Source of the DNA: a virus
Lineage: Duplodnaviria > Heunggongvirae > Uroviricota > Caudoviricetes
Length of the DNA: 64,000 nucleotides
Reading direction: 5' to 3' (one strand)
IMG/VR virus record: IMGVR_UViG_3300032007_000013
Notes under the pieces: generated by a model
Told to the model about the DNA's origin: nothing
Databases searched by the model: none
What the model saw: only the letters and a program-made list of their open reading frames with translations
Program-made: the position numbers and the translations under genes
Shown here: piece by piece, positions 17,780-45,854 of the stretch
Layout: each line of letters starts with the position of its first letter
Position numbering within the stretch: position 1 is the stretch's first letter

Positions 17780-20700
17780 TCACCTAATCCTTATCCAAAC
17801 ACGACCATCGACTTTTACTTTTCCAGTTCCCCACTCTTCATAATCTGGAATTTCTGAAATAGTTCCAATAGCACGCATTGGATATTTCTCTTCTTCCTCA
17901 TCAGTCATAATACTTACTGTTCCATTTGGTCCAGAGCAAACCGCATAACCAATATGAGAAGCAAATTCCTCAATAGACTCATAAGGGTAAGCAAGAACAC
18001 GACCATTTGAAGCAATTGGAGTATTATAACCATTTTCTTCATCTTGTCCAATAGCAAAGCCAAATGTATCAGAAATGATTTCACAGCCACGCTCAAGGCG
18101 TTTAGTGGTAAGAGATAATGTGCCATCTCCATTTTCTTTGATACATCTACCTGGCTTTTGTATATCTTTTTCTTTTTCATTATCTTTACGATATTCAGCA
18201 TAGTCATTCCAGACAGCTCCATAGGTACGAACTGAATAAAAATACCCAGTAGCTGAAATATATGTTAAACATCTATTTGCTATCGTATTACAATTTGTAG
18301 CAAAAAAGATTGAACCATCACTACATATTACCATATTTTCACTAGTTTGGCTTAGTTCAAAAGCATTAGCTCCAACTCCAGTATTAGCATTAGCTGTTTT
18401 ACCTTTTATAGCATTATTATAAATACCACTAGGGCTTTCTCCTGCCCCAATAATCATATTTCCAGCACTTTGAATAACCATATTTGTTCCATTAGCGGCA
18501 GTGTCTAAATCATCGTACACCTTGATATATCCTGTTGTAGTAATATTATTATTTGTCTATTTTACACTAAAGTTTAAAGTAGCTGGATAATTTTGAGCAA
18601 TTGATGTTGTTTTAAGAATAGTAAGATCTCCAGTCATTGTATCTCCAGCTTTATTAACAGCCCCTAAAGCACTTCGCCATGATGCTGGAGAACTTACAGA
18701 TACTTCATGTGTTCCATCTGGGCTTTCATATAATGTTAAAACATTCGTATGCGAAGTTCCAGAAGAATCATAATTTCTAGTCCCATATATCGTAAAATTA
18801 TAATTTGGTCTTAAGGGGTCAGAACTTGATTCCCTGCCCCACTGGATATAACTCATTAAACTACCATCTCGCGCTTGTCCACGGATTAAAGCTTGGCTAT
18901 AAGTTGTAGCACTAACATTTGTAGCAGCTGTTTCTAAATTTTGAGCATTTAAATTTAAAGCCCCTGTCATTGTATCTCCAGCTTTTAAAACATAATTAGT
19001 TAAAATTGGTGTACTGCTCCAAGCCACATCCCTATTATCATCACTATTTTTAACTAATACCTAACCAGTGGTTCCTCCAATGGGCAACTCATATTGAGGA
19101 TCGGTTAACTAAAAGAAAATCTATCCTTCTTCTCCAGTCTCAGGAAGAGTATCGCCATAGGATACATTATTTGTACCTTTTAATGTTTTTGCCAATAAAT
19201 TACTAGTAATAAATCCGTTAGAAGGATTTAATGTTGGTCTATCTGTTGTAACATTTGGAATAGCTCCATAATAAGATTCATTACTTAATGAAGTCATATT
19301 TGTAAATGTAGCAACAGCAGAATCAGAACTATTCAAACCTACTATAGGTAATTCAATATCTGTGGTGCTTCCCCAAACTTTTTGTAAAGTATTAGTATTA
19401 TAATGTATATTATCAATAACCCAATTTGTCCCATCATAATGGAATAAATATGTTTGATTGGCTAATAGATATCCTGCTTCAGGGATATTATCTATAGTAT
19501 CATTATACATATATTTAATAGATTTATCACCAGTATTATTAACATTTAATTTTAAGTTGGTGACAGCAGCGCTATTAGTTTCACTAAATACTACAGCTAT
19601 AGCAGCACCTGTAACTAAATTTGTAGAGGTAAAGTCAGGACAAGTAACTGATTTTACAGCAGTTTCAGCAATAGTAGCGCAAGTTCCTTTAAAAATAAAA
19701 TGTTCTTCTTTAGCAGTAATATCGCCAGTTGAATTAGTAACAACTGATTTATTTGCGGCAATTGTATTGCTAATTTTTAATTTACCATCATTACTTATAT
19801 TACCATGAATATGATTTTGTAAAGCGAAACTACTAGCTAATCCTAGTAAATGCCATTTTCCATTTGACCATACAAATTCTTGTGAATTAGTTTTATATAA
19901 TACAACATCACCATCTGCTGGTGTTAAATTAGAACCACCAATTATACTAACTGGAGAAGTAGTAGCTTCATCTGTTAAAACAGTTTCTGTTACTCCTCTA
20001 AAAGTCATGGCCTTTGTTAATCCTAAATCAGTGATTCCAATTTCTACAGGTTTATTTCCAAAATAACTCTTATCGCCAATTTTTAATTCTTTCATCAAGA
20101 TTTCGCAAGTTTTTTCATTATTATTTATTTTTAGTTTTAAAGTATTTTTAGATGAATTTGTAGTAGAATCATAAGATAAAGTTTCAAATATATTATTTGC
20201 TTGTTCAAAAGAATCTCCATCCCAATAAACTGGAATTTTTGTTGAACCAATAGTATTAGAACCAATTAAAGATTTTTTTACATTATTATTAGAAATATAA
20301 TAAGTGCCGCCACCATCAGTAAAGGATTCAACTCCTAAGAAATAGTTTATAGAAGTTGCTTCTGGTAAGGCAGTAATATTTTTCCAAGTTAATGGACCAG
20401 CCATCTATCCTCCATTTAATGGCAGATAAGCTGTAGTATCTAAAGCCCATGTATTAGCAGCAGTTTTCTTTAATAACCCACTAGTTCCTGTCAATGCTTC
20501 AATAGCTTTTAAATCATCTGTTCCAGTAATTTCACTTAAAGAATAAGTTGGTTTAGTAGATGCTTTTGCCCAAGCGGATACATCGCTCGCTGGCATAGAA
20601 GTTGGGAAATCACTTATCTATGATTTAGTAATTGAAATATTCTAAAAAGTAGCAGAAATCTTACCATTTGTTTCAGATAATGCTGATAATGTTTTTCCAG

Positions 20701-22708
20701 CTCCAAAACCTGTAATATTAGATACATCTAAATTATTTATAGCATTTGTTACAGTAGATACTGTTGCTGCTTTATTCGTTGAAGCATTATATGTTCCATC
20801 AAAAGTATAAGTAGTATCAGTTACAGTTTCTGTCCCTGTGGTATAACCAGTTACGTGACCATAAGTATCAAATGTTAAACCAGTAATGTATTTTCTCCCA
20901 TTAGCAGTAAGATCTTCAACAGAAGAAGTATCCGCATGACTAATTGTTCTTATTCCAGAAGAAGTAATGGCGGTATTATCAGTATCTAATGTAATGCCAT
21001 CACCAGCTTTTAAAGTAATAGATGTTACAGTACCAGTTTTCCCATATCCAGAGGCGCCTGTAATAGCACTCCAAACTGCTTTTGATGTCGGAATAGTAGT
21101 ATCATTTGAGCCACTGGCTGGAGTAGATGTTGTAATAGTTTTTCCACTATCACTTAATCCTTTCCCCGTATTTCCAGTATAAATAGCAATACCATTGGTT
21201 GTAGAAGTCGCAGGTCCAATTACATAACCATCAATATTAGTTTGAACAACAGTCCAATGAGCATTATTAGCAGTAGTTCCATCGGTAATACAATAAATAG
21301 TATCTCCAATTTCACATTCCTATCCAGCATAAGTTCCAGCTGTTACTACTTTATATGTCCATCCTTGCTTATGAGTATTTGGTAAAGAAGTTACCGTAGC
21401 TCCATCATTAGAAGTTCCTAAAGTACCTTTAAAAACAAGAGCATCATTAGTAGTTAATATATTATCAACATATTGTTTAGTAGCAGCATGTAAATTATTT
21501 GTAGGATCAGCTGGTAATGTAAGCGCTCCAGTCATTGTGCCACCAGATTTATCAAGTTTTCCAGAAATATCTGTTATGACTGTTCCTAAATCTACAACAC
21601 CAGATGTGCCTTTTGATACTCCATTCATTTTTATACCAGTAATAGTACCAACATTATTAGTATATCCATTTGGATTTGAACTATCATAAGGAGTATACCC
21701 TAATGCTGTAGTAACACTAGTATTATCAATAGAAATTTTTCCATTACTATCAACATTAATATTACTTCCTATAATAACTCCACCTTTAGTTGAAGTTGTC
21801 GCAGTTGGCAATACATAATTGTTATAAGTAGGTAATGGACGAGTTTTAAAACTTATTTCTCCATTCGCATTCTATGAAACCGAATATACAAAACGAGTTG
21901 CTGTAGTAGATTCAGAAGTCCCAGTACTATCAGTATAAGCAGTCTGTTTTGTTTTATAATTTGACAAACTCTAATGCGCGGTTAATACTTCTTTTCCTCC
22001 ACTATATAATTTAGTAGCATATAAATAACCATTAAGATTTAACCTATCTGTTCTTATTGGATTAGTAGTAGAAGTATCAAAACTTAATTTAGATTGTTGG
22101 CTAGTGTATGGAGCATAAGTAATAGCTGTTTCAGAATTAGAACCATCTAAAATATTATCAACAGCAGAAGCCGTATTTGTATTTGGATTCGCAGGCATTG
22201 TAAAAATATAACTAGTGCCGCCAGCTGTTAATTTATATTTAGTACCAAAAGCTAATGTTAACTAATTAGTTCCATTATCAGTAGCAATAGTTGTAATATG
22301 CGTATGCCCACTTGTAGCTGCTCCAATATTAGCAGGAGTTAAATTTACCTATCCTGTTCTATAAGTAGCTTCAGCATTACCTTTAACACCAGTAACTGCT
22401 CCCAAAGTCCCTTCTACAGAATGACTTACCCCATCACCTGTAGTATAAGATAACTAATTATTAGAAATGGAAATTCCTTTTATATAAGTCTTATAGATTT
22501 CAGTGCTATTATGGCTATCATAAAAAGCCCTTTGGGCATTAATAGGTCGTCTATCTAAAACTAATTGGTTACTATTATTTTCAGAAGGATATTCAGCATC
22601 AATATAAAATAAACCATTATTAGTATTATAATAAGCATATCCATCATTCATTGGCATAGCATCTAATTTAGTTTTATCTTTACCTTTAAAAATTTTAAAA
22701 AGTGCCAA
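17780..22708 (-). CDS. tail fiber protein, ~1642 aa, reconstructed from nine standard-code ORF fragments joined by single in-frame TAG codons
   Basis: All junctions (22454, 22198/21971, 21811, 21320, 20596, 20404/20405, 19121/19027, 18557/18520) are single in-frame TAGs. Total 4929 nt, divisible by 3. Repeated SGGTMTGALTLPADPTNNLHAATKQYVD / KAGDTMTG.LNL tail-fiber motifs. TTG start with AAGGGGAG RBS. TGA stop. Confidence 0.65.
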
Positions 22709-32347: not shown

Positions 32348-32352
32348 ATATA

Positions 32353-32390: not shown

Positions 32391-32441
32391 TTTAAAAAAA
32401 ATATTATATAATATTTGTAAGGGAAAGGAGACGAATATTAT

Positions 32442-32588
32442 ATGAATATTTTTAATACACCAGAAATTTGGCTATATATTTCCACATGGGCTTTTGGAGC
32501 TATATGTGGATTAATATTCGCTTGGGCCATGGAAATAGAGAATCAAAAGTATTTAAAAAATAAGGAAAAGAAAAAAGATGATAAATAA
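32442..32588 (+). CDS. small membrane peptide (48 aa)
   Basis: ATG after AAAGGAGACG. One TM. Confidence 0.35.
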   Translation: MNIFNTPEIWLYISTWAFGAICGLIFAWAMEIENQKYLKNKEKKKDDK

Positions 32589-33018
32589 TTTTGATAGAGA
32601 ATATGCTTTTTTAAGTAATTTTTATAATAGTCCTATGATAGGATTTGATGGAATTAATTATCCAACAGTTGAGCATGCTTTTCAAGCACAAAAAACTTTA
32701 AATTATAAGGAAAGATTAATGATAGCAAATGCTCTTACCCCTGGAAAAGCAAAACGATTAGGCCGTCAAGTTCAATTACGTGATGGTTGGAATAATATAA
32801 AGAATGAAGTCATGTATAATTATGTATTTCATAAATTTTCACAAAATCCAGATTTAAAACAAAAACTTATAGACACGAATTTTGAATACCTCGAAGAAGG
32901 AAATACTTGGCATGATAATTATTGGGGAAATTGTTATTGTGCGAAATGTCAATATATCAAAGGTGAAAATCATCTTGGAAAAATTCTTATGCAAGTAAGA
33001 GATGAATTATTAAAATGA
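32578..33018 (+). CDS. NADAR (DUF1768/YbiA-like) domain protein, 146 aa
   Basis: FLSNFY...VEHAFQAQK... signature of the NADAR family. Confidence 0.6.
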   Translation: MINNFDREYAFLSNFYNSPMIGFDGINYPTVEHAFQAQKTLNYKERLMIANALTPGKAKRLGRQVQLRDGWNNIKNEVMYNYVFHKFSQNPDLKQKLIDTNFEYLEEGNTWHDNYWGNCYCAKCQYIKGENHLGKILMQVRDELLK

Positions 33019-34434: not shown

Positions 34435-35265
34435 ATGGGTTATATATATAAAATTTGGAATGAAGATAATGAAAAAATTTATATAGGATAGACAAGTGTT
34501 GGAATCAAAGCAAGATGGTCTTAGCATTTAAAAAATTATTTAACTAATGACGCTGTGCTTTATATGGCTATGCGTAAACACGGGGCAGGTATTTTCCATA
34601 TCGAATTAATAGAAGAATGTGATAATAATTTATTAAATGAGCGAGAAAAATATTGGATTAGTCAATATGATAGTTATAAACATGGATATAATTCTACCCC
34701 TGGAGGAACAGCTTTATCATCTGGAAAATAGTTTTCACGAGTAAATGATAAATTAATAAAATTATTATGGGATGAAGGTCTTTCTATTTCTTAGATTTGT
34801 GAAAAAACACAAAATAGTAATACAACAATTAGAGAACATTTAATAGATTATAAGAATTATTCTATTAAAGAATCTAATAATAGAGGATATAAGCAGAGTG
34901 GCTTGAATAAAAGAATAGCTGTTACTTAGTGGGATTTAAAAGGTAATTTTATAAATACATACACTTCATTAAGCGAAGCAAGTGAAAAAACTAAAATCCC
35001 ATTAGCTAATATTGGAAAATGTATTCAAAAAGAAAGACAAACTGCTGGAGGTTATTATTGGACAAAAGATACAGAAATGCCAACTATAAAAATAAAACCT
35101 AAAATTTATTAGTATGACTTAAATGGAAATTTAATTCATATTTATGATACGAAGCAAGAAGCCGCTAATTTTTTAAAATTAGATAGTGGAAGTATTGCTA
35201 AAGTATGCAAAGGCAAAAGAAAAACTTGTGGTGGTTTTATCTGGAAAGAAATTTATGAAGAATAA
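34435..35265 (+). CDS. GIY-YIG homing endonuclease (276 aa) with 7 in-frame TAG
   Basis: GYIYKIWNEDNEKIYIGQT...ARWSQH...EREKYWISQY, plus C-terminal DNA-binding repeats. RBS AAAGGAGA. Confidence 0.75.
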
Positions 35266-35282: not shown

Positions 35283-36071
35283 ATGATACATGATGAATTA
35301 GGAAAAAGAATGAAAAAGTACGAAGCAATCCCTCAAATCAGTTTAATGCGGCGAACTCCTGTCGCTATTCGTATTGATGGAAAAGCTTTCCATACTTTTA
35401 CCAAGCACCTACAGAAACCTTATGATAAACTTTTCCATGAGGCCATGGAAAATACTATGAAGTATCTTTGTGAAAATATCCAAAACTGTGTATTTGGATA
35501 CACACAATCTGATGAAATTACTCTTATCCTTACAGACTATGAAACTTTAAATACGGATGCTTGGTTTGGTTATGAAGTCCAAAAACTTTGTTCAATTAGT
35601 GCGAGTATGGCAACTATGAAATTTAATCAAGAATTTCAAAGACTTGTTGAAGATTATATTTGGGAATGGACTCATAGTATGGTGCCACAATCTGTTGGGC
35701 TATGGGAAAAAGAAAAAACATATCATGCTCATTTAAAAGATTGTATCGCACGAGGGGCAATGTTTGATGCTCGTTGTTTTAACATTCCAAAAGAAGAAGT
35801 AGTAAATCTTGTTCTTTGGCGGCAGTTCGACGCTGAACGCAATTCTATTAACTCTATGGGGCAAAGTTATTTTTCTCATAAGGAACTTCAAAATAAAAAT
35901 TGCGGCGAAATCATTAAAATGCTCGAAGATAAAGGTGTCTTTTGGAATAACCATTCTAATGCTTTTAAGCATGGAGTTGCTTGTGTAAATAATGGCGATG
36001 GTTGGGAATTAGATTATAATATGCCAATGCTTAAAGGAGAAGACAGGGATTATCTTGAAAGGTTGATTTAA
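35283..36071 (+). CDS. Thg1-like 3'-5' nucleotidyltransferase (tRNA-His guanylyltransferase family), 262 aa, no TAG
   Basis: RIDGKAFHTFTK...GYTQSDEITLIL..., which I recognise as Thg1/TLP-like. Confidence 0.65.
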   Translation: MIHDELGKRMKKYEAIPQISLMRRTPVAIRIDGKAFHTFTKHLQKPYDKLFHEAMENTMKYLCENIQNCVFGYTQSDEITLILTDYETLNTDAWFGYEVQKLCSISASMATMKFNQEFQRLVEDYIWEWTHSMVPQSVGLWEKEKTYHAHLKDCIARGAMFDARCFNIPKEEVVNLVLWRQFDAERNSINSMGQSYFSHKELQNKNCGEIIKMLEDKGVFWNNHSNAFKHGVACVNNGDGWELDYNMPMLKGEDRDYLERLI

Positions 36072-36530
36072 GTGAAAGTATTTTACAGTTATGAAGATGA
36101 TACATATTATTGCCGAGAGCAAATTGATAATCAAACTATTGAACTTGGAATGAATTGTAATTATTCTTCTAAGGGAGAAGATACTACTTGGTGGAATATA
36201 TATATTAGTGTTCATAATAAGCGTAAAGATATGTATGATAATATGGATAAGCATATCATTACTGGGAAAAATCCTTTTGCCACTTTTTCAAAAGCAAGAG
36301 AAATGCTTTATGAATTAGAAGCCTATGTTTTGCAGCAAGAGCTTCTATTCCGGCCTAAGTGCAATAAGGTAGTTTTCTTTTGCACTTGGGTCGATAATCG
36401 TCGTCGTGATGCTTATTATCGTGTTTTATCTAAAATGGGATATGATTGGGGATTAACTCCTATTTTAAAACATAAATGTATTATGAAAGTATACACCAGA
36501 GAAGATTTAAACCCCGAAATTAAGGTATGA
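36072..36530 (+). CDS. hypothetical protein (152 aa), GTG start
   Basis: ORF directly following the Thg1-like gene. No TAG. Confidence 0.4.
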   Translation: MKVFYSYEDDTYYCREQIDNQTIELGMNCNYSSKGEDTTWWNIYISVHNKRKDMYDNMDKHIITGKNPFATFSKAREMLYELEAYVLQQELLFRPKCNKVVFFCTWVDNRRRDAYYRVLSKMGYDWGLTPILKHKCIMKVYTREDLNPEIKV

Positions 36531-36534
36531 TATT

Positions 36535-37377
36535 ATGTTAGATGAATTTACTTATGAATATTGTAGATGCGAGACTGAAAAAGATTATAATATTCTTCAT
36601 CGAGTAGAGGAACATCTTATTGAAATTATTGAGCAACGAGAATTAGATATTCATCAAATTTTTTTTATTGCTTTAGAAGGAAGCCAAAACTATGGGCTTG
36701 ATTTGTTTGATAGTGATGTCGATACTAAAATGATTGTTCTTCCTAGCCTTAATGATATTGTTTGGAATAAAAAACCAATAGCAATGACACATATCAGAGC
36801 AAATGAAGAACATACTAGTATTACTGATATTCGTAATTATTTTTCTTCTTTGCGGAAACAGAATATTAATTTTATTGAAACTCTTTTTTCTCCTTGGATT
36901 ATTGTAAATGCAGAATATAGAAACGAATTTGAACAATTATTTAATAATAGAGAATTAATTGCTCGTTATGATGAATGTAAAGCTGTAAAGACTATTGGCG
37001 GAATCTCTATTGATAGATATAAAGCAATCCAAAATCTTAATTCTAAAAAAGCAGATGTAATTGAAAGATATGGATATGACGGAAAAGCAGTTAGTCATAT
37101 TATTAGAATTTATGCTTTTTTAAAACGATATATTCGCGATTTTCCCTACCAAACTTGTATTATCCCCGATGAAGAAGAAAAAGAAATTATTTTATTTTTT
37201 AAACAGAATTTTGCTGATAAAGAAGAAGGATTAAGCGTTGCTAAAAATATGTTCGATGCTATCCAAAGAGAAGTTGATGATTATGTGAATACTCATGAAG
37301 AAACTATTAATTCAAAAGCAGAATCTATTTTAGAGAATGTACAATATTATATGGTTAAAAAGGGATTAGGAATGTAA
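36535..37377 (+). CDS. Pol-beta-superfamily nucleotidyltransferase (280 aa), no TAG
   Basis: LEGSQNYGLDLFDSDVDTKMIVL matches the GS-x(9-13)-DxD NTase signature. Confidence 0.55.
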   Translation: MLDEFTYEYCRCETEKDYNILHRVEEHLIEIIEQRELDIHQIFFIALEGSQNYGLDLFDSDVDTKMIVLPSLNDIVWNKKPIAMTHIRANEEHTSITDIRNYFSSLRKQNINFIETLFSPWIIVNAEYRNEFEQLFNNRELIARYDECKAVKTIGGISIDRYKAIQNLNSKKADVIERYGYDGKAVSHIIRIYAFLKRYIRDFPYQTCIIPDEEEKEIILFFKQNFADKEEGLSVAKNMFDAIQREVDDYVNTHEETINSKAESILENVQYYMVKKGLGM

Positions 37378-37392
37378 TAACCTAGTCCTTTT

Positions 37393-37421
37393 TTGACATT
37401 TATAAAAAAATATGGTATTAT
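37393..37421 (+). promoter_or_regulatory. sigma70-like promoter TTGACA-N17-TATTAT
   Basis: TTGACA 37393-37398. Confidence 0.45.
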
Positions 37422-37468
37422 TATATATAAAATGAAAAAATATATATACATATTAGGAGAGAAAAATA

Positions 37469-37698
37469 ATGAAAATTAAACTTGCTCCATACCAAGTTGG
37501 AGTTTTGTTAAAAATTCTTAATGATACATAGGATGATATTTTTATTCTTTCTATAAAAACAAAAAGAAAATATAATTTAAAAGATCCTACAGAAAGAAAA
37601 GTAGGATTAGCAATGGTATATGCACAACAAGAAGAATATTTTGAAATTATTTGTAAAAATTACAATGATGAACAAAAAATTTTAAATATTTTGTATTA
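37469..37698 (+). CDS. small protein (76 aa) heading the rSAM/GT8 cluster; 1 in-frame TAG
   Basis: RBS AGGAGAG. Possible substrate or accessory of the downstream radical SAM enzyme. Confidence 0.4.
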
Positions 37699-37763
37699 AA
37701 TTTATTATAAAGAAGAGGTGAGCTATTATTATAAATTATAATACAGATTTTCAACATCCAATT

Positions 37764-39008
37764 ATGGCTACATTGATGCTAACAAATGCTTGTAATTTAA
37801 AATGTAAATATTGTTTTATAATTAAGTAGAAAGGTCAAATGTCATTAGAAACAGCAAAAAAAGCAATTGATTTAACTTATCAAAATTTATTATATCATTA
37901 GTTATCAAAAACTAGCCCATTAAGAAAAAATAAAAAAATTATAATAAATTTTTTGGGTGGAGAACCATTATTATTATATAATAAAATTATTAAACCTTGT
38001 ATAGAATATGGTAAATAGAAATATAAAAATAAAATTTGTTTTTCAATTACAACAAATGGAATATTACTGTCTCCTGAAATTAGTGATTTTTTAGTTAAAA
38101 ATGATACACATATTACTTTTTCAATTGATGGAAATGAAGATATCTAGAATTTTAATCGACCAGCCTATAATATACAGAATTATTATAATATACTTATTAA
38201 TAATTTAAAATATTTAATAAAAAAATATCCAAAAAAATTTTTAGTAAGAACTACTATTTATAGCAAAAATATTAGTTCATTATATGATTCTTATCTTTTT
38301 TTCGATAATTTAGGTGTAAAAAATTTTTCTTTTTTTCCAGATACTACATCATTAAAATGGACAGATAATGAAATAACTCAATTAGAAAAAGAAATAAATA
38401 AAATTTGTTTTTATAGATATAAACAAAGTATAAATAATCAAATATCTATGAATAATGATTTATTTAATTAGTTATTATCTGATGGATTTTTAACTTTAAA
38501 ATATAAAAATAATTTACAAGATATTAAATTATTAAAAAACAAAAATAGATAGAATATTTACCGTTGTGGGTTAGGAATTCTTACTTGGATTATAAATATG
38601 AATGGAGATATTTATTCATGTGTAACTCAAACTAATCCATAGGATAATAATAGTATATATTTACTAGGAAATATATACAATGAAAATAAAATAGATATTA
38701 AACAACATGTAAAATTATTAAATATTTATCAAGAATAGATATATAAAAATAATTTAAATATTTATGAAGAATGCCAAAAATGTATTTATTCGTATGTATG
38801 TTTGCATAGAACTTCTTCTTGTTTAACTATTGGATATAATACACATAATTTATTTAATATTAAGCCAGAAGAGCCTGGATGTAAATTTATTGAAACAATT
38901 TATAAGAATAGTTTAATTTTAATAAAATATTAGGAATCTCCTATTTTAACCTTTGAAGAATACAATAATATATTATAGAATTTTAACTTATTATCTTTTC
39001 TAAAATAA
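37764..39008 (+). CDS. radical SAM protein with C-terminal SPASM/twitch-like Cys cluster, 414 aa, ~16 in-frame TAG
   Basis: CNLKCKYC (CxxxCxxC), GGEPLL, C-terminal CQKCIYSYVCLHRTSSC. Frame tracked codon by codon, 1245 nt. Confidence 0.65.
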
Positions 39009-39026
39009 AAAAGGAGATAAAAAAAT

Positions 39027-40007
39027 ATGGAACAAAATAAATATACATATATGACTTTATTAACAAACAATACATATGTATAGGGAGTATTGTTGTTAGA
39101 TTATACTCTAAAACAAGTAAATAGTAAATATCCATTAATTACATTGGTGACAGATGAAGTTAATGAAAGTACTTTATAGATATTAGATTATTTTAAAATA
39201 AAATGGAAAAAAGTTGAAACAATTTTGTTTCCAGAGCATATCCAAAATTTTATTGATGAGTCTCATAAAATTTATCCTTTTAATCCATTGTGGCATAATA
39301 TTATTACAAAATTTTAGATTTTTAATCAAATAGAATATGATAAAATTATTTATTTAGATTGCGATATTATGATATTAAAAAATATAGATCATTTGTTCGC
39401 TAAACCACATATGTCAGCTTCAATTAATTTTAATTATTATATGAAGCTTAGAAAAAAAACTTTTAAAAATTGGGATAATAAAGAAATACAAATTACATCT
39501 AGTTATGCTTTATTTAAAGAAGAATTAGATACTAAAACAGAACATTTTAGTGGAGGCTTTTTAGTAATTAAGCCATCAAAAGAACTTTTTAATAATCTAA
39601 TAAATTTTATGATTAACTTAGATCTTTCTCAATTACCAGAATATGTGCTAACAATTCATGAAGAAGTCATTCTAAATTTATATTATTCAAATTGGCAACA
39701 ATAGGATGAATTACATTTAAATGAATATTATAATGTTCTTTATTTTGCAAATTTGAAAATGGGTATGATAACAAAAGATTTAGAAGATAATGCTTATTTT
39801 ATTCATTTTTATGGTTCAATAAAACCTTGGGATGTAAATAATAAATTATTCAAAAATAAAGTAAATATAAATAAAAGTTATTTTGTTTCTGCTCCTTTAT
39901 ATTATAAAGCCGCTGATATTATTCAAAAACAACTAATGTCTTTACCATCTAATTTATTACTAAATTTTACAAGAATTTATTTAAAAGAGGTTGAAACAAA
40001 TGAATAA
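39027..40007 (+). CDS. glycosyltransferase family 8 (LgtC/glycogenin-like), 326 aa, ~7 in-frame TAG
   Basis: N-terminal YTYMTLLTNNTYVQGVLLL, DxD motif IIYLDCDIMILKN, C-terminal FIHFYGSIKPWD. Confidence 0.65.
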
Positions 40008-40917
40008 TAATATTTATATAACTTTATTAGGAAATAATAGTTACTTACAAGGTGTATTATTATTAAATTATTCTTTAAAACAAGTAAAAAGTAAATACCC
40101 TTTATTAGTTTTAGTCACTTAGAATATCAATACAGCTACGAAAGATATTTTAAGTTTTTTAGATATTCCTTATAAAGAAATACCATCAATTGATTTTACT
40201 GAATTAATTAAAATTAATCAAGAACGAAAATAGCTTTATATAAAATAGGGGAAAAAAGTTAGAGATACTTGGTCTTTTGCAGGATTAAATAAATTTCAAA
40301 TTTTTAATTAGATACAATATGATAAAATTATTTATTTAGATTGTGATATTATGGTATTAAAAAATATAGACCATTTATTTAATGAATTAAATATCTCTGT
40401 AACTAATCAACGAGAAAATTGGAATTACCCATTAGAAAATTTTAATTCTGGTTTTATAATTTTTGAGCCATCACAACAAATATATTAGGATTTATTAAAA
40501 TTAATTAAAGATAGGAATATTTTAAATAATGAATATTTTAAACAATTTTCTTATTTTGGAGATTAGATTTTATTGAATTATTATTTTAGGAATTTATAGA
40601 ATAAAATAAAAATACACTTTTTAGATAAATATTATAATATTCAACTTACACATGGGCCGCATTTCTTCCCAACTATGGAAGAAATTGAAACCTATGGATA
40701 CTTTATTCATTTTTTAGGACCAATAAAACCTTGGGATATAGGAAATAGATTATTTTCTAGTAGTTATACATTATAGGAAAAAAAACGAATTATGTACTAT
40801 AATTATTATTGGAAAGAGGCTGCTAATATTATAGAACAAATTCTATTAACTTTACCAGCAAAACTAATATTAGATTTTTCATAGGTATATTTAAAAGAGA
40901 TTAAATCTTTTAATTGA
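40000..40917 (+). CDS. glycosyltransferase family 8 paralog, 305 aa, ~9 in-frame TAG
   Basis: IYITLLGNNSYLQGVLLL, IIYLDCDIMVLKN, FIHFLGPIKPWD. Confidence 0.65.
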
Positions 40918-40942
40918 AAAAATTAAAAAAATATTATATAAT
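40915..40942 (+). promoter_or_regulatory. sigma70-like promoter TTGAAA-N16-TATAAT (family copy)
   Basis: TTGAAA 40915-40920, TATAAT 40937-40942. Confidence 0.5.
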
Positions 40943-40976
40943 ATATATGTAAAGAATAAAAAAAGGAATAAAATAT

Positions 40977-41336
40977 ATGATACTTAATAAAAATCATCCA
41001 GATTTTGAATTTAATGATGAATATTTTCTTTATCTTATTGATAACCATTATGATTTTGATGAAGAAGATATTAAAATGTTTATTGAATGTTGTGAAATTA
41101 ATCGTATTCCACGAGAACTTCGTCGCTGGACAAGATGGATTGATAGTATTTGCGAAGCCAAAGATAGATATTTTATTGTAGGCTGGGACCAAGGACTTAC
41201 GGAGTATCAAGAAAATATATATAGTGATAGTTATATTACAGAAGTAACTCCTATTGAAACAACAAAACAAATTATTGCCACTCAATGGCGAGATAAAGAA
41301 AATAATATAGTTTGCGAGACAATAAATGATGAATAA
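40977..41336 (+). CDS. hypothetical protein (119 aa)
   Basis: ORF. Confidence 0.45.
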   Translation: MILNKNHPDFEFNDEYFLYLIDNHYDFDEEDIKMFIECCEINRIPRELRRWTRWIDSICEAKDRYFIVGWDQGLTEYQENIYSDSYITEVTPIETTKQIIATQWRDKENNIVCETINDE

Positions 41337-41955: not shown

Positions 41956-42348
41956 ATGAAATATATAATTGCTGGCGGACGCGATTTTAATAATCGTAAT
42001 ATCTTATATGCTGTAATGAATACTGTTAAAAAATATGGCCCATCAGTAAATAAACCTATTACAGAAATTATAACAGGTGATGCTAGAGGGGCTGACACAT
42101 TAGGAGCCGAATGGGCTAATGTAAATGGAATTAGACTTACTCACTTCCCAGCAAAATGGGAAGTGTATGGTAAATCTGCTGGTTTTATTCGTAATGCTGA
42201 TATGGGAGAATATGCTGATATTGCTATTATTTTTTGGGATGGAGAAAGTAAAGGCACTAAACATATGATTCAAACAATGAAAAAACTTGGAAAGCCATAT
42301 AGCGTATTTAATTATAATGGAGAATTAATTGAATCTAATGGGAATTGA
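41956..42348 (+). CDS. SLOG/DprA-like Rossmann-fold protein (DUF2493-like), 130 aa
   Basis: GGRDF...ITGDARGADTLGAEWA...IIFWDGESKGTKHMIQ. Confidence 0.5.
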   Translation: MKYIIAGGRDFNNRNILYAVMNTVKKYGPSVNKPITEIITGDARGADTLGAEWANVNGIRLTHFPAKWEVYGKSAGFIRNADMGEYADIAIIFWDGESKGTKHMIQTMKKLGKPYSVFNYNGELIESNGN

Positions 42349-42628
42349 AAATTTTATTATGCCTTGCGGCTTTGCTTTTTTTGCTGGATTTTGTTTTGGA
42401 AGTTGTTTTCGTAAAGATGAATATAGTTTTACTATGTTTTTTCCAGGAGCATTTGCTCTATTAGGAGTGATTATGGAGATAATGAAATGAATAAATACGT
42501 AGAAGAAATTTTAACATATGAAGCTGTAAATAAAGAGCCATTTGATTTAGCATTAATTCCAGAAGATGTTCGTGAATATGTTATTTGGATGTTAAGAAAA
42601 GAATATATAAAAAAAATATATAAAAGGG

Positions 42629-43501
42629 ATGATACTAATGATGATTCATAACCAGAATTTTAAAAATTGGTTGATACGTGGAGATTGTCATGGCCAGTTT
42701 AATTGGATGATTAATGGTAGCCTTAATGATTACACTCCTAATGAAACCGCGATTATTATTCTAGGCGATGCCGGATTTAATTTCTATCTTAATAAAACTG
42801 AAATTAGACATAATAAAGAAATTAACGACCGCGGCTATACTTTTTATGTAGTTCGCGGAAATCATGAAGCACGTCCACAAGATTTGCCAGACATGAGTAA
42901 AGTATATGACTGTAATGTCCATGGATTTATTTATTACAATCCTAATCTTCCTAATATTCGTTATTTTAAAGATTATGGAGATTATGTAATTGGACTTTAT
43001 TACTGCTATATAATTGGCGGGGCATACTCTGTTGATAAATGGTATCGTCTCGGTAGATTAAATATGACAGAAGAGACTAATATTCCTACTAAATCTGGTT
43101 GGTTCGCAGATGAACAATTGACTAAAGAAGAAATGGCAGAAGCAGAACATGAAATTGATATGATATTAATAAAAGGGCTCCCAAAGAAATTTGATTTTAT
43201 TCTTTCTCATACCTGTCCTTATTCTTTAAGACCTACAGATATGTTCTTGTCTGGAATAGACCAATCAACAGTGGATAATAGTATGGAACTTTGGATGGAT
43301 AAAATTTATCAAAAAAATCGTGGCAAAACAATTTGGATTGCCGGTCATTATCATATTGACCGCATTGAAGCGCCTTATTTTGAATTTTATTTTAATGATA
43401 TAGAAGAATTAAATAATATCAAACAAAGATGGGATAATTATACTATAACAAAAAAATTAGATTGGTGGCTTATTAAAAATGAAAAAAATTTTGGACATTA
43501 A
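42629..43501 (+). CDS. calcineurin-like metallophosphoesterase (290 aa)
   Basis: GDCHG, GDAG, RGNHE motifs. Confidence 0.6.
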   Translation: MILMMIHNQNFKNWLIRGDCHGQFNWMINGSLNDYTPNETAIIILGDAGFNFYLNKTEIRHNKEINDRGYTFYVVRGNHEARPQDLPDMSKVYDCNVHGFIYYNPNLPNIRYFKDYGDYVIGLYYCYIIGGAYSVDKWYRLGRLNMTEETNIPTKSGWFADEQLTKEEMAEAEHEIDMILIKGLPKKFDFILSHTCPYSLRPTDMFLSGIDQSTVDNSMELWMDKIYQKNRGKTIWIAGHYHIDRIEAPYFEFYFNDIEELNNIKQRWDNYTITKKLDWWLIKNEKNFGH

Positions 43502-43593: not shown

Positions 43594-44349
43594 ATGGGAA
43601 GTAAATCAGAAGTTGTTGTTGGGAAATAGTTTGGAAATTGGACTGTATTAGAAATTGAAGTAAAAAATCCTCAAAGTAAAGCTAAAAGAGTTAGAAAAGG
43701 TGCTTTATGTAGATGTAAATGTGGGACAGAACGATATATTGAATATAGAGCACTATATGATGGGAGAACACATGATTGTGGATGCGAGACTCATAAACGA
43801 ATAGCTCAAACAAAATATAATAATAGTATTATCCCAAAAGGAACATAGTTTGGTTATTTAACTGTAATAGATGATGCTGGATTAAAAGGAAATAAACATT
43901 GCTCAAAATGCCAATGTCAGTGTGGGAATATAATAATAGTAACTAATACTCATTTAAAAATGGGTCATACTAAATCTTGTGGCTGTATGAAAATTTCAAC
44001 CGGAGCACAAAAAATTAAAGATATTCTTATTAGTAATAATATTCACTTTATTACAGAATATACTTTTAGTGATTTAAAATCAAATAAAGGTGGCACTTAT
44101 CGTTTTGATTTTGCTATTTTTAAAGATGAAAAATTATTAGAATTAATTGAATTTGATGGGGCTCAACATTTTTCTTCTCAAAAAGGATATTATGAAGGAG
44201 AATTAGAAAATATACAATACAGAGATAATATAAAAAATGATTATTGTTAGAAACATAATATTAAGTTAATTAGAATTCCGTATTATGAAATAGAAGATAT
44301 AAATTTAAAAAAACTAGAATTAGAAAATTATTTTGATGAAAAAATATAA
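43594..44349 (+). CDS. zinc-ribbon-repeat / DUF559-like endonuclease family protein (251 aa), ~5 in-frame TAG
   Basis: GKQFGNWTVL...CRCKCG...DCGC; GTQFGYLTVI...CQCQCGN...SCGC; YRFDFAIFKDEKLLELIEFDGAQHF...LIRIPY. Confidence 0.65.
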
Positions 44350-44508: not shown

Positions 44509-44691
44509 ATGTTTGGAATGATTTTATCAGTTTTTATTGCTTTCTTTTTAACTTACGTAACTTTTTTTATCTTTTTTAATGATGAACGCCTTAATGACTA
44601 TGCTCGTATAGGAATTTCTTTATGTTTTTTAGGTTTCACAATTTTTTATATTATAAAATGGATGTCAACTTTTTGGAGGTAAACAAATGAC
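44509..44691 (+). CDS. small membrane protein (60 aa)
   Basis: Two TM helices. Confidence 0.4.
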
Positions 44692-45061
44692 AATTTTAAA
44701 TACTTTCCCCACTGAAATTACAACTGGGACCGCATATTATTTCACTTGGTCAATTGCTTGTTGGATTGGAGTTGTAATAGTAGCGATTATTATGGCTTTA
44801 GCGGTTATAGTTATAAAAGAAGGTCTTGAATCTGGTGAAGGATTAGTAATTTTATTAAGTATTACTCTTATTGCTTTAGCAGCAGTTATTTTATTCGTAT
44901 TAATTCTACCTCATGAGGTTACAACTACTGTTAATACATATGAAGTTGTAATGGATGAAACAGTAAGTTTTAATGAAATTATAGATAAATATAATTTTAT
45001 TGAAAAGCGTGGAGATATTTATGTATTACAGGATAAACTTCCAGAAGGAGAAAATGATTAA
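44687..45061 (+). CDS. membrane protein, paralog family B member 1 (124 aa)
   Basis: Two N-terminal TM helices plus a C-terminal domain with motif ...T.NTYEVVMDETVSFNEIIDKYNFIEKRGDIYV... Confidence 0.5.
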   Translation: MTILNTFPTEITTGTAYYFTWSIACWIGVVIVAIIMALAVIVIKEGLESGEGLVILLSITLIALAAVILFVLILPHEVTTTVNTYEVVMDETVSFNEIIDKYNFIEKRGDIYVLQDKLPEGEND

Positions 45062-45466
45062 ATGGATGGTATAACAATTCTTAGTACAGGAACAAAAGTT
45101 ATGGATGTAGGTGAAAAATTTTATTTTTCTCCTAATTTCTCAAGTTTTTTAGGCTTAGCTGTTATTATTGCATTGGTAGTAGGATATTGTTTATTTATTA
45201 AATATGGAATAAAAGAAAAAGATGAAACTGTTCTTATTGGAGTAGGAGTTTGTCTTATATTTATCTTACTAGTTACGGATTTAACATTTAATCATCAAGT
45301 GACAAAAACAATTCCTGAATATAAAGTAACAATGGATAAAAATGTTAGTCTTATTGAATTTTATGATAAATATACAGTTTTAGAACAAGATGGCCTGATT
45401 TTCACTATTATAGATAAAGATTGGGAAAATAAAGATTATAATAAGGTTTTAAATAATAATGGATAA
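45062..45466 (+). CDS. membrane protein, paralog family B member 2 (134 aa)
   Basis: Same architecture: ...EYKVTMDKNVSLIEFYDKYTVLEQDGLIFTIIDKD... Confidence 0.5.
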   Translation: MDGITILSTGTKVMDVGEKFYFSPNFSSFLGLAVIIALVVGYCLFIKYGIKEKDETVLIGVGVCLIFILLVTDLTFNHQVTKTIPEYKVTMDKNVSLIEFYDKYTVLEQDGLIFTIIDKDWENKDYNKVLNNNG

Positions 45467-45854
45467 TGAACTTATTTTATTAAATACTATTGAGACGTCT
45501 GAACATGTAAAATTTGATTGGTATTTTGCTGGGAAACCTCTTTCCTGGATTGCCGTTATTGGGGCAGCTATTCTTGTTATAATTGGAATTTTATTATTAA
45601 TTAAAGCACAAGATGCTTCTTATTATGACAGAGATGGAATAATTGCTTTTGGCATTATTTGTATTCTTTTATCTGTTGGGATTATAATAATTACATTAAT
45701 CCATGAAGTAACTAAACCATATCCACAATATCAAGTAACGATTACAGAAAAAACTAATATGAAAGAATTTTATGATAAATATGATATTTTAAAACAAGAT
45801 GGCATGATTTTTACTATTAGAGATAAAGATTATAAGGAGCGAGATTATGGATAA
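45459..45854 (+). CDS. membrane protein, paralog family B member 3 (131 aa)
   Basis: ...QYQVTITEKTNMKEFYDKYDILKQDGMIFTIRDKD... Confidence 0.5.
   Translation: MDNELILLNTIETSEHVKFDWYFAGKPLSWIAVIGAAILVIIGILLLIKAQDASYYDRDGIIAFGIICILLSVGIIIITLIHEVTKPYPQYQVTITEKTNMKEFYDKYDILKQDGMIFTIRDKDYKERDYG

What the first reader, a model, noticed from the sequence alone, without database searches (positions are those of the whole stretch)
37469..40917. Radical SAM/SPASM enzyme plus two GT8 glycosyltransferases plus a leading small ORF: candidate peptide/protein or nucleic-acid glycosyl-modification module
This is a compact same-strand cluster under its own promoter (37393). It contains a 76-aa ORF, a radical SAM protein with CxxxCxxC and a C-terminal SPASM-like Cys cluster (37764-39008), and two paralogous GT8 (LgtC/glycogenin-like, DxD = LDCDI) transferases (39027-40007, 40000-40917). 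All are extremely AT-rich and have the highest TAG density in the window, so they are strictly late or suppressor-dependent. rSAM/SPASM enzymes usually mature peptides or proteins, and GT8 enzymes transfer Glc or Gal to proteins, LPS or, in some phages, to modified DNA bases. Together they could form a phage-encoded glycosylated-peptide or virion/host-surface modification system, or a DNA hypermodification pathway. I know of no described phage module with this composition.
Basis: partly seen in the sequence, partly recalled or inferred. Interest (0 to 1): 0.7.

Follow-up and report, generated by a model that had tools for sequence, protein, structure and literature searches.

The report
Phage cassette: radical-SAM enzyme plus glycosyltransferases
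A 3.5-kb optional gene cassette in a jumbo phage that reads TAG as glutamine joins a peptide-crosslinking-type radical SAM enzyme, two glycogenin-like sugar transferases and a tiny conserved protein, and it most likely decorates a phage protein, a combination I did not find described.

Summary
With TAG read as Gln, 37469-40917 encodes four same-strand genes:
- a 76-aa protein
- a radical SAM/SPASM enzyme (CxxxCxxC plus all seven SPASM cysteines, no RRE domain)
- two paralogous GT8 transferases, 36% identical to each other

One sub-claim is wrong: other genes in the window have a higher TAG density.

New findings:
- The cluster is a discrete insertion. Near-identical phages have an empty site (RlaP, then one promoter element, then the next gene). 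A sister phage carries a diverged, reshuffled version (GT8-small-rSAM) at the same site.
- The rSAM belongs to a phage clade closest to the thioether maturase CteB. Nearly everywhere else this clade sits beside a fibre-like protein with a CxxxC-rich tail. No such protein is found in this window.
- The GT8s are glycogenin/Gat1-like, not LgtC-like. Their closest viral relatives lie inside tail-fibre arrays, and one is fused to TPR repeats.
- One unrelated contig has rSAM, Cys-rich protein, GT8 and UDP-sugar dehydrogenase in one operon.
- The small ORF is predicted to be folded (HPr-like topology). It is not a leader/core peptide or an RRE.

Best reading (about 0.45): a late, suppressor-dependent protein-modification cassette. 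DNA hypermodification is not supported. The substrate is unidentified.

The parts
37385..37442 (+). Left copy of the phage's repeated promoter element, diverged (TTGACA at 37393, TATTAT ending at 37421). It drives the cassette and marks the left junction of the insertion.
   Evidence: Best promoter-like site in the region. The empty-site relative L261 aligns with the window up to 37442 and resumes at 40901, and its single promoter element matches both window copies. The motif compared with its other copies is shown.
37469..37699 (+). Small ORF, 76 aa, 1 in-frame TAG at codon 21. Predicted to be a folded beta-alpha-beta-beta-alpha-beta-alpha domain. Conserved with the cassette. Its role (partner or substrate of the rSAM) is inferred.
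37764..39008 (+). Radical SAM/SPASM enzyme, 414 aa from the ATG, 10 in-frame TAG. The probable true start is an ATT/ATA codon at 37725-37731. It is CteB/PapB-like and has no N-terminal RRE.
   Evidence: Pfam, NCBIfam and PHROG hits. Family profile against the PDB: CteB 5WGG 3.2e-65 over chain residues 94-444, anSME 5.5e-33, BtrN 4e-6. Cysteine alignment with CteB. Invariant cysteines in the clade. Start-codon reasoning.
39027..40007 (+). GT8a, a glycogenin-type GT8 glycosyltransferase, 326 aa, 4 TAG. It keeps DxD and HxxGxxKPW but has HEE in place of GDQ. It carries an insertion of about 30-40 residues and a cassette-specific C-terminal extension.
   Evidence: Pfam GT8 7.7e-16. Alignment A2. 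Glycogenin-1 match 1.4e-16 in two segments. Orthologue P0122 in the sister cassette.
40000..40917 (+). GT8b, a glycogenin-type GT8 glycosyltransferase, 305 aa, 9 TAG. The full catalytic motif set is kept (LDCDI, GDQ, HFLGPIKPW). It overlaps the GT8a stop by 8 nt.
   Evidence: Pfam GT8 3.1e-20. It aligns with human glycogenin-1 residues 3-223, E 2.9e-19; the residue aligned with the self-glucosylated Tyr195 is Phe. A 100% identical protein lies on a 241,262-bp contig.
40901..40958 (+). Right copy of the repeated promoter element (TTGAAAAAATTAAAAAAATATTATATAATA at 40914-40943). It marks the right junction of the insertion and is the promoter of the next gene (40977-41336).
   Evidence: Six copies of the 30-mer occur in the window, against 0 expected. 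It is 100% identical to the 3' end of sister contig L159. Junction with empty-site L261.
2638..2707 (+). Suppressor tRNA (anticodon CTA). It is needed to translate every gene of the cassette, because the first TAG falls at codon 19-41 in all four.
   Evidence: ARAGORN. First-TAG positions.
17780..22708 (-). 1642-aa Ser/Thr-rich (23%) tail-fibre protein. It is a candidate acceptor by analogy only and is not shown to be modified.
   Evidence: Its C-terminus is 50-58% identical to fibre proteins that flank the rSAM module in L166 and the GT8-TPR gene in L090.

Best explanation
The region is a self-contained accessory cassette of about 3.46 kb, inserted between two copies of the phage's own promoter element in a roughly 241-kb phage that reads TAG as Gln. 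All four genes carry an early in-frame TAG, so they can be translated only once the phage suppressor tRNA is active. That groups them with the TAG-rich fibre, structural and lysis genes and not with their TAG-free neighbours.

Proposed mechanism (inferred): the rSAM/SPASM enzyme uses SAM and three [4Fe-4S] clusters to abstract a hydrogen atom from a protein substrate and install a crosslink. By homology with CteB and PapB this would be a Cys-derived thioether. The two glycogenin-type retaining GT8 enzymes add alpha-linked hexoses from a UDP-sugar to the same protein, one possibly priming and the other extending.

The acceptor is a protein. It is either the co-conserved 76-aa folded protein encoded just upstream of the rSAM (conserved Cys61 ... 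Asp66-Glu67, and a conserved YNLKD hairpin) or a virion fibre-type protein encoded elsewhere.

Shown: gene content, catalytic motifs, the insertion/empty-site polymorphism, co-inheritance of small ORF + rSAM + GT8, and the family affinities. Inferred: the chemistry, the acceptor, the timing, and that the rSAM and GT8s act on one substrate.
For: (1) It is one unit. Close relatives L260/L261 (RlaP 97% aa identity, Thg1 96%) and L256 (a 239,565-bp contig; Thg1 95%, but its RlaP only 58%) go from RlaP through a short intergenic stretch (97 bp in L261, 151 bp in L256) with one promoter element straight to the p119 homologue. The window has the promoter element on both sides of the four genes.

(2) Sister cassette. 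L160 runs RlaP flank (95.7% nt identity), then GT8a' (40% aa), then the N-terminus of small'. L159 runs the C-terminus of small', then rSAM' (45% aa), then 42 bp that are 100% identical to window 40902-40943. The cassette DNA itself is only 68-70% identical.

(3) L161 has rSAM, a protein with a Cys-rich tail, GT8 (39% to GT8b) and a UDP-Glc/GDP-Man dehydrogenase N-terminus (Pfam 3.8e-12) in a row. Its rSAM is 78% identical to that of L162, whose third gene is different, and only 37% identical to ours. GT8 therefore joined this rSAM clade at least twice.

(4) The rSAM clade is of the protein-maturase type: CteB 3.2e-65, PapB model 2.3e-44, all cluster cysteines invariant. In every close relative whose downstream gene I read, apart from the sister cassette, the neighbour is a 170-290-aa protein with CxxxC-rich tails. 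In L166/L167 the module lies among tail-fibre genes. Homologues of the partner's N-domain carry the fibre chaperone domain Peptidase_S74.

(5) The GT8 profile matches glycogenin-1 at 1e-37 and the Skp1 alpha-galactosyltransferase Gat1 at 1e-32, against LgtC at 4e-8. The closest viral GT8s (34-37% identity) lie inside Ser/Thr-rich tail-fibre arrays of TAG-recoded phages. In L090 the GT8 is fused to TPR repeats and is followed by a fibre homologous to this window's 1642-aa fibre.

(6) The cassette has 24 TAG codons and its conserved flanking genes have none.
Against: No substrate has been identified. No CxxxC-rich ORF exists in any frame of the 64-kb window. None of the 25 homologues of the closest Cys-rich partner family lies on the 241-kb source contig.

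The small protein has a single Cys and a generic fold. Its family has only two members, so residue conservation carries little weight.

Outside three lineages, rSAM and GT8 are never neighbours: 80 + 80 + about 80 loci were examined. Adjacency could therefore reflect cargo accumulating at a recombination hot spot and not a shared pathway. L262 has an rSAM + Cys-rich pair at the same hot spot without a GT8.

Bacterial relatives of the GT8s (30% identity) sit in polysaccharide loci.

GT8a lacks the GDQ motif.

The rSAM scores far below the cut-offs of every curated maturase family.
Confidence: 0.45

Rival explanations
1. These are two unrelated morons that landed at the same recombination hot spot. 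The GT8 enzymes remodel host envelope glycans (LPS, capsule or teichoic acid) to block superinfection or change serotype. The rSAM works independently on a Cys-rich fibre protein encoded elsewhere in the 241-kb genome.
For: GT8 homologues occur without an rSAM in 72 viral loci, and rSAM homologues occur without a GT8 in about 240 loci. Bacterial GT8 relatives sit in polysaccharide gene clusters (L086). The site upstream of p119 holds different cargo in different relatives: empty in L261, rSAM + Cys-rich in L262.
Against: Small ORF, rSAM and GT8 were retained together in two cassette versions that have diverged to 40-47% aa identity and have a reshuffled gene order. L161 independently links a GT8 and a sugar dehydrogenase to the rSAM/Cys-rich pair. 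The GT8s are far closer to the protein-directed glycogenin and Gat1 than to LgtC. The nearest viral relatives sit in fibre arrays, and one is fused to TPR repeats.
Confidence: 0.25
2. The rSAM is a decaying remnant. The ancestral rSAM + Cys-rich module lost its substrate gene here, and only the GT8 genes still function.
For: Every other close relative whose neighbour I read keeps a Cys-rich gene directly downstream of the rSAM. This window and the sister cassette do not.
Against: The ORF is intact. All ten cluster-binding cysteines and the GGEP, TTNG and SxDG motifs are kept in both cassette versions despite only 45% identity. That indicates purifying selection.
Confidence: 0.1
3. The rSAM acts on a sugar or sugar nucleotide, as the twitch/SPASM dehydrogenase BtrN or DesII-type enzymes do. 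It makes an unusual donor or modifies the glycan laid down by the GT8s.
For: Sugar-modifying rSAM enzymes exist in the SPASM/twitch group, and BtrN is detected by the family profile (4e-6). No peptide substrate is found in the window.
Against: BtrN matches about 60 orders of magnitude more weakly than CteB and over the core only. All 25 NCBIfam hits shown are peptide or protein maturases, apart from a partial viperin-core match. Clade members pair with Cys-rich proteins.
Confidence: 0.08
4. The small ORF is a RiPP precursor (leader plus core) that is matured into a secreted glycosylated peptide, a bacteriocin-like product.
For: It lies directly upstream of the rSAM, as RiPP precursors do, and this position is kept in the sister cassette. 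It has a conserved C-x4-D-E near the C-terminus, reminiscent of the Cys-Asp thioether motifs made by PapB (the PapB chemistry is from my own knowledge).
Against: It is predicted to be a compact folded domain over its whole length (pLDDT 82.5). It has a single Cys, no Gly-Gly or other cleavage motif, and no protease, exporter or RRE in the cassette.
Confidence: 0.05
5. The module hypermodifies phage DNA, with the rSAM and glycosyl transfer acting on a modified base.
For: Phage thymidine hypermodification pathways can include rSAM enzymes (PMC8989533, listed). Some phages glucosylate DNA (my own knowledge).
Against: The rSAM is a SPASM peptide-maturase type. The GT8s are glycogenin-like. None of the cassette's neighbours that were scanned matches a base-modification enzyme family; they are Thg1, RlaP, a SLOG protein and a phosphoesterase. 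Near-identical phages lack the cassette altogether, which would be unusual for a genome-wide DNA modification.
Confidence: 0.03

Closest known systems
CteB (SCIFF ranthipeptide maturase, PDB 5WGG/5WHY) and PapB
   Same: The radical SAM core and the full seven-Cys SPASM domain are shared. These are the best PDB match (3.2e-65 for the clade profile) and the best NCBIfam model (PapB, 2.3e-44). Clade relatives sit beside Cys-rich partner genes.
   Different: There is no N-terminal RRE; the match starts at CteB residue 94. Scores are far below the family cut-offs (152 against 340, 102 against 425). In relatives the partners are 170-290-aa fibre-like proteins and not 45-aa peptides. In this window there is no Cys-rich partner at all.
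NCBIfam TIGR04115, radical SAM peptide maturase of the CXXX-repeat target family
   Same: A SPASM rSAM is paired with proteins that carry tandem Cxxx repeats, which is the arrangement seen in the phage relatives.
   Different: The score is 89 bits against a cut-off of 350. The phage partners match no NCBIfam or Pfam family. The window cassette has no repeat protein.
Anaerobic sulfatase-maturing enzyme (anSME, PDB 4K36-4K39)
   Same: It is a SPASM rSAM that also lacks an RRE and acts on a folded or unfolded protein, not on a leader peptide. It is the second-best PDB family (5.5e-33).
   Different: The NCBIfam score is 83 against a cut-off of 349. No sulfatase gene was found in the cassette or among the neighbours I scanned.
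Glycogenin-1/2 and Gat1 (the Skp1 alpha-galactosyltransferase), the protein-directed branch of GT8
   Same: These are the best structural-database relatives of both GT8s (1e-37 and 1e-32). DxD, GDQ (GT8b only) and HxxGxxKPW are conserved.
   Different: The residue aligned with the self-glucosylated Tyr195 is Phe in GT8b. GT8a has HEE in place of GDQ and carries an insertion. Both have a C-terminal extension of about 55 aa that is shared only within the cassette family.
Virion glycosylation in mycobacteriophages (Freeman et al. 2023, PMC10527164, cited within PMC12801897)
   Same: Phage-encoded glycosyltransferases modify the phage's own structural proteins. This is the concept that best fits the fibre-embedded GT8 relatives.
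   Different: The host group is different. To my knowledge no rSAM partner is described there. No modification has been demonstrated here.
Glycocins (for example sublancin with SunS)
   Same: They are ribosomal peptides or proteins that are both crosslinked through Cys and glycosylated.
   Different: Glycocins use GT2 S-glycosyltransferases and disulfides, and have leader peptides and exporters (my own knowledge). None of these features is present here.

Membership tests
Radical SAM superfamily | CxxxCxxC motif binding the SAM-cleaving [4Fe-4S] cluster, and a Pfam PF04055 match above the gathering score | tested here: met
   C10-x3-C14-x2-C17. PF04055 scores 45.2 bits against a cut-off of 29.5.
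SPASM subfamily | C-terminal seven-Cys motif (Cx9-15Gx4C ... Cx2Cx5Cx3C ... C) for two auxiliary clusters | tested here: met
   C268, G281, C286, C337, C340, C346, C353 and C373 align with CteB and are invariant in the clade. The last spacing is x6 and not x3. Pfam SPASM scores 19.7 bits, just under the cut-off of 21.5. The sister enzyme P0002 scores 21.9.
PapB / SCIFF (CteB) ranthipeptide maturases | Score above the NCBIfam equivalog cut-off | tested here: not met
   PapB 152 against 340. SCIFF maturase 101.8 against 425.
PapB / SCIFF (CteB) ranthipeptide maturases | N-terminal RiPP recognition element (RRE) | tested here: not met
   The protein starts 10-24 residues before CxxxCxxC, and the PDB alignment begins at CteB residue 94-101.
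PapB / SCIFF (CteB) ranthipeptide maturases | Adjacent short Cys-rich precursor peptide | tested here: not met
   No ORF with at least 6 Cys in 40 aa lies in or near the cassette in any frame. Relatives have Cys-rich 170-290-aa proteins instead.
PapB / SCIFF (CteB) ranthipeptide maturases | Formation of a thioether crosslink | not testable with these tools
   This needs enzymology and mass spectrometry.
Anaerobic sulfatase-maturing enzymes | Score above the NCBIfam cut-off, and a sulfatase substrate gene | tested here: not met
   83.2 against 349. No sulfatase gene was found in the cassette or among the neighbours I scanned.
   Only a PHROG QueE-like hit at E = 0.0011, against phrog_1802 at 5.6e-34. 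Neither family appears among the 25 best NCBIfam hits shown (of 50).
Glycosyltransferase family 8 | Pfam PF01501 above the gathering score, the DxD motif and the HxxGxxKPW motif | tested here: met
   58.9 and 73.3 bits against a cut-off of 24.3. Both have LDCDI, with HFYGSIKPW in GT8a and HFLGPIKPW in GT8b.
Glycosyltransferase family 8 | GDQ motif (glycogenin D163/Q164 region) | tested here: inconclusive
   It is present in GT8b (the Q is encoded by TAG). In GT8a and its orthologue P0122 it is replaced by HEE.
Glycogenin (self-glucosylating primer) | An acceptor Tyr equivalent to Tyr195 | tested here: not met
   The aligned residue in GT8b is Phe. GT8a was not checked at this position.
LgtC / RfaI-type LPS GT8 | Score above the NCBIfam cut-off, or best structural relative | tested here: not met
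   PRK15171 scores 28 bits against 461. LgtC 3.7e-8 against glycogenin 1.1e-37.
RiPP precursor (leader/core) for the small ORF | A short, largely unstructured peptide with a modifiable core, usually several Cys for thioether enzymes | tested here: not met
   It is predicted to be folded throughout (pLDDT 82.5) and has one Cys.
Stand-alone RRE / PqqD for the small ORF | Winged-helix beta3-alpha3 fold or a PqqD profile match | tested here: not met
Phage moron / accessory cassette | Presence/absence polymorphism between otherwise near-identical genomes, own promoter, deviant composition | tested here: met
   Empty site in L261 and L256, promoter element on both sides, cassette GC 19-21% against about 30%.

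The most novel reading that the evidence does not exclude
Phages of this group run a protein-tailoring system for virion or accessory proteins that I did not find described. A dedicated clade of RRE-less radical SAM/SPASM enzymes crosslinks fibre-like proteins. In this cassette the enzyme is re-targeted, together with glycogenin-type GT8s, to a tiny folded HPr-like protein or to a fibre. The product would be a protein that is both radical-crosslinked and O-glycosylated. Because the cassette is mobile and swappable, it would act as a plug-in that changes virion surface chemistry, affecting host range, stability or immune evasion.
Probability: 0.25. Interest if true: 0.8.

Novelty: new variant of a known kind. 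Interest (0 to 1): 0.6.

Why it matters
If the cassette does modify a phage protein, it would add radical-SAM crosslinking to the short list of known virion post-translational modifications. It would also join it to glycosylation in one mobile unit.

Natural cassette-positive, cassette-variant and empty-site phages exist, so the effect on host range or particle stability could be tested directly.

The wider pattern found along the way is common in gut and rumen-type metagenomic phages and matches no family in the Pfam, NCBIfam or PHROG searches I ran: an rSAM/SPASM enzyme next to a fibre-like protein with CxxxC-rich tails, set among tail-fibre genes. It is a source of RRE-independent maturases that act on whole proteins. 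Such enzymes are of interest for enzyme engineering.

Tried and rejected
1. Standard-code ORF calling gives only fragments.
2. Megablast of 20 kb against GenBank phages found no match.
3. IMG/VR scans with single-protein patterns for the rSAM and for GT8b found no relatives. Alignment-based scans did work.
4. I looked for a GT8 near the rSAM in 80 IMG/VR and 80 metagenome loci, and for an rSAM near the GT8 in 72 loci. None was found.
5. I looked for a Cys-rich substrate gene by six-frame scan of the window, by tblastn with partner proteins and by a database search for partner homologues on the 241-kb contig. None was found.
6. The small ORF as an RRE, a leader peptide or any known family: no Pfam, NCBIfam or PADLOC hit, only a marginal PHROG match of unknown function (E = 0.057), and only generic fold matches.
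7. Defence or anti-defence assignment by PADLOC gave only a generic viperin-core hit to the rSAM.
8. Partner proteins of relatives against PHROGs and NCBIfam gave only phrog_6085 of unknown function.
9. The third gene of the relatives' modules (257-288 aa) shows only a sub-threshold resemblance to Peptidase_U32 (E = 0.01).
10. Seven literature searches for a phage rSAM/SPASM + GT module or for Cys-rich fibre crosslinking found nothing relevant.
11. The afdb50 fold library was unavailable.

Full report
**What is there.** Under the standard bacterial code the interval contains only short fragments.
- 37469-37699, 76 aa, 1 TAG
- 37764-39008, 414 aa, 10 TAG
- 39027-40007, 326 aa, 4 TAG
- 40000-40917, 305 aa, 9 TAG

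The window encodes a tRNA with anticodon CTA at 2638-2707 and two tRNA-Gln. Many other genes need TAG read-through. Two TAG codons fall on conserved glutamines. One is the Q of the GT8 'GDQ' motif in GT8b. The other is the Q of 'TQ(D/N)xNRP' in the rSAM family, which is also Q in phages that use the standard code. TAG = Gln is therefore well supported. A 100% identical GT8b lies on a 241,262-bp metagenomic contig that carries the same gene order. The host genome is thus a jumbo phage.

- Radical_SAM (1.5e-11), CxxxCxxC and all seven SPASM cysteines are present.
- Both GT8 assignments are well above Pfam's threshold. Both proteins have LDCDI, and they are 36% identical to each other.
- The promoter-like site at 37393 is the best in the region.
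- The cluster has the lowest GC in the window (18.5-21% inside it).
- The claim of the highest TAG density is wrong. Several structural and homing-endonuclease genes exceed it. The cassette does contrast sharply with its immediate conserved neighbours, which have no TAG at all.
- The rSAM probably starts at an ATT/ATA codon at 37725-37731, just after a GAGGTGAG ribosome-binding site. The frame is open from 37722 and homology to relatives continues upstream of the ATG.

**The cluster is a discrete, optional cassette.**
- A repeated 30-mer promoter element, TTGAAAA(T/A)(T/A)TTAAAAAAATATTATATAATA, occurs six times in the window against 0 expected. One copy lies immediately after GT8b, and a diverged copy is the 37393 promoter.
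- Using that element and the neighbouring RlaP protein as probes, I found close relatives in IMG/VR. In L260/L261 (RlaP 97% aa identical, Thg1 96%) and in L256 (a 239,565-bp contig; Thg1 95%, RlaP 58%), RlaP is followed by a short intergenic stretch (97 bp in L261, 151 bp in L256) with a single promoter element. The homologue of window gene 40977-41336 comes next. The four genes are absent.
- L261 aligns with the window up to 37442 and resumes at 40901. Its one promoter element matches both window copies. The cassette therefore lies between two copies of the promoter element.
- A sister phage has a different version at the same site. L160 runs RlaP flank (95.7% nt identity up to 37425), then a GT8a orthologue (40% aa), then the N-terminus of a small-ORF homologue. 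L159 runs the C-terminus of that small ORF, then an rSAM (45% aa, 518 aa), then 42 bp that are 100% identical to 40902-40943. The cassette DNA itself is only 68-70% identical.
- L159 and L160 come from different sequencing runs, so joining them into one cassette is an inference.
- Small ORF, rSAM and a GT8 thus travel together, in a reshuffled order, between conserved flanks.
- A more distant relative (L262) has an rSAM plus a Cys-rich protein directly upstream of the same downstream gene, so this site is a cargo hot spot.

**What the rSAM is.**
- The NCBIfam hits shown are almost all peptide or protein maturases. PapB is best (2.3e-44), followed by nif11, CcpM, SCIFF and the CXXX-repeat family, then anSME. 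All are far below the curated cut-offs.
- A profile of 39 family members matches CteB (5WGG) at 3.2e-65 from residue 94 onward, that is, without CteB's RRE. It matches anSME at 5.5e-33 and BtrN at only 4e-6.
- The family is large: 612 database hits and 414 IMG/VR loci.
- In every close relative whose downstream gene I read, apart from the sister cassette, the rSAM is followed by a 170-290-aa protein with CxxxC-rich N- and/or C-terminal tails.
- These partner proteins match no annotated family. Homologues of their central domain end in the fibre chaperone domain Peptidase_S74.
- In L166/L167 the module sits between tail-fibre genes (Gp34_trimer). These phages share Thg1, RlaP, the SLOG protein and the phosphoesterase with this window at 38-62% aa identity.
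- This window has no such Cys-rich ORF in any frame. None of the 25 closest partner homologues lies on the 241-kb contig.

**What the GT8s are.**
- Their profile matches glycogenin-1 (1.1e-37) and the Skp1 alpha-galactosyltransferase Gat1 (1.1e-32), well ahead of GlyE (2e-9) and LgtC (4e-8).
- GT8b keeps DxD, GDQ and HxxGxxKPW. The residue aligned with glycogenin's Tyr195 is Phe.
- GT8a and its sister orthologue have HEE in place of GDQ, an insertion, and a C-terminal extension (LP..L...F..IYLKE) shared with GT8b.
- The nearest viral relatives (34-37% identity) lie inside arrays of Ser/Thr-rich fibre proteins in TAG-recoded phages. In L090 the GT8 is fused to TPR repeats. It is followed by a fibre whose C-terminus is 50-53% identical to that of this window's 1642-aa fibre.
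- Bacterial relatives at about 30% identity sit in polysaccharide loci.

**Is the rSAM-GT8 pairing meaningful?**
- In general it is not. None of about 240 rSAM loci and none of 72 viral GT8 loci shows the other enzyme nearby.
- Within the close clade it recurs. L161 has rSAM, a Cys-rich protein, a GT8 (39% to GT8b) and the N-terminus of a UDP-glucose/GDP-mannose dehydrogenase.
- The L161 rSAM is 78% identical to that of L162, whose third gene is an unrelated 262-aa protein. It is only 37% identical to the window's enzyme. A GT8 was therefore recruited next to this rSAM clade at least twice.
- In L161 the only plausible common substrate in the operon is the Cys-rich protein.

**The small ORF.**
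- It is an orphan. Only two clusters were found among 1.84 billion representatives, the second belonging to the sister cassette (47% identity).
- The single-sequence AlphaFold2 model is fairly confident (pLDDT 82.5). Its topology is beta-alpha-beta-beta-alpha-beta-alpha.
- It is therefore not a leader/core peptide. Both homologues keep the block S-x-K-T-x-R-x-YNLKD-x2-ERK-x-GL and C61-x4-D66-E67. With only two sequences this carries little weight.

**How it most likely works (inferred).** The cassette is transcribed from its own promoter copy. It can be translated only when the suppressor tRNA is active, because the first TAG falls at codon 19-41 in all four genes. That ties it to the TAG-rich fibre, structural and lysis genes. 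The RRE-less CteB-like enzyme installs a radical-mediated crosslink in a protein. The two retaining GT8s add alpha-linked hexoses. The acceptor is either the co-conserved small protein or a fibre-type virion protein. I put this at about 0.45.

**Rivals.**

| Rival | Confidence |
|---|---|
| Independent morons, with the GT8s acting on host glycans | 0.25 |
| A decaying rSAM | 0.10 |
| A sugar-directed rSAM | 0.08 |
| A secreted RiPP | 0.05 |
| DNA hypermodification | 0.03 |

The DNA-modification rival is weakened by the enzyme affinities and by the neighbours (Thg1, RlaP, a SLOG protein and a phosphoesterase). It is also weakened because near-identical phages lack the cassette altogether.

**Novelty.** Seven full-text searches found no description of a phage rSAM/SPASM + GT8 module or of rSAM enzymes paired with Cys-rich fibre proteins. 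One cyanophage paper merely notes an rSAM 'maturase' next to sugar-amine genes. The components are known kinds. The combination, its mobility, and the replacement of the Cys-rich partner by a small folded protein are new variants.

Noticed in passing
L002-L010, L071-L081, L161-L168, L249, L252 (for example L166 8756-11418): There is a widespread phage module that matched no annotated family in the Pfam, NCBIfam or PHROG searches I ran. It consists of an RRE-less rSAM/SPASM enzyme followed by a 170-290-aa protein with CxxxC-rich tails, and often a 257-288-aa protein with sub-threshold Peptidase_U32 resemblance. In L166/L167 it lies between tail-fibre genes. Some homologues of the partner end in Peptidase_S74 instead of a Cys tail.
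   Followed up: partly
window 2168, 22899, 25774, 40914, 46242, 48424 (diverged copy at 37393): A 30-36-bp promoter-like element, TTGAAAATTTTAAAAAAATATTATATAATATATATG, is repeated six times (0 expected). Exact copies occur in IMG/VR contigs of 169-240 kb, so it marks a phage group. It flanks the cassette on both sides and may mediate cassette exchange.
   Followed up: partly
window 615-688, 1272-1345, 2638-2707, 4819-4890, 5496-5573: A tRNA cluster: two tRNA-Gln, the CTA suppressor (called tRNA-Pyl by ARAGORN), tRNA-Lys, and one tRNA with an unassigned four-base anticodon call (tgtt).
   Followed up: no
window 35283-37377 and 41956-43501: The cassette interrupts a conserved, TAG-free block made of a Thg1-like tRNA-His guanylyltransferase, an RlaP-type nucleotidyltransferase, a YAcAr/SLOG protein and a calcineurin-like phosphoesterase. 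The set looks like RNA/tRNA repair or counter-defence. It is syntenic in relatives L166, L256 and L261.
   Followed up: partly
window 34435-35265 (confirmed); 2800-3528, 6147-6875, 27338-28324, 29677-30669, 43594-44349 (not scanned): Low-GC, TAG-rich ORFs that may be homing endonucleases. 34435-35265 carries GIY-YIG and NUMOD1 domains. 27338-28324, 29677-30669 and 43594-44349 have zinc-finger-like Cys clusters. 2800-3528 and 6147-6875 share only the composition. Together with the cassette they are the main TAG users among otherwise TAG-free neighbours.
   Followed up: no
L085 4945-6848; L090 8001-9905: In related TAG-recoded phages a GT8 is fused to, or followed by, a second domain and TPR repeats. 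It sits inside arrays of Ser/Thr/Ala-rich fibre proteins, which suggests fibre glycosylation.
   Followed up: partly
window 15207-16448: A 413-aa polytopic membrane protein that resembles a nucleobase/solute permease by eye is encoded next to the tail-fibre gene. A near-identical protein fragment occurs in L004.
   Followed up: no
window 44687-46215: Four tandem paralogous genes of about 122-134 aa each. Each protein has two hydrophobic segments and a conserved C-terminal motif.
   Followed up: no
window 48526-49854 and 31457-33018: An adenylosuccinate synthetase homologue, a Band_7 protein and a NADAR-domain protein are present, according to the precomputed Pfam hits for the source contig. 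They are possible auxiliary metabolic or ADP-ribose-related genes.
   Followed up: no
L001 8001-12205: A 229-kb TAG-recoded phage contig has two rSAM genes and a degenerate SPASM-like protein around a 228-aa Tyr-rich protein. This is a different variant of the rSAM module.
   Followed up: no
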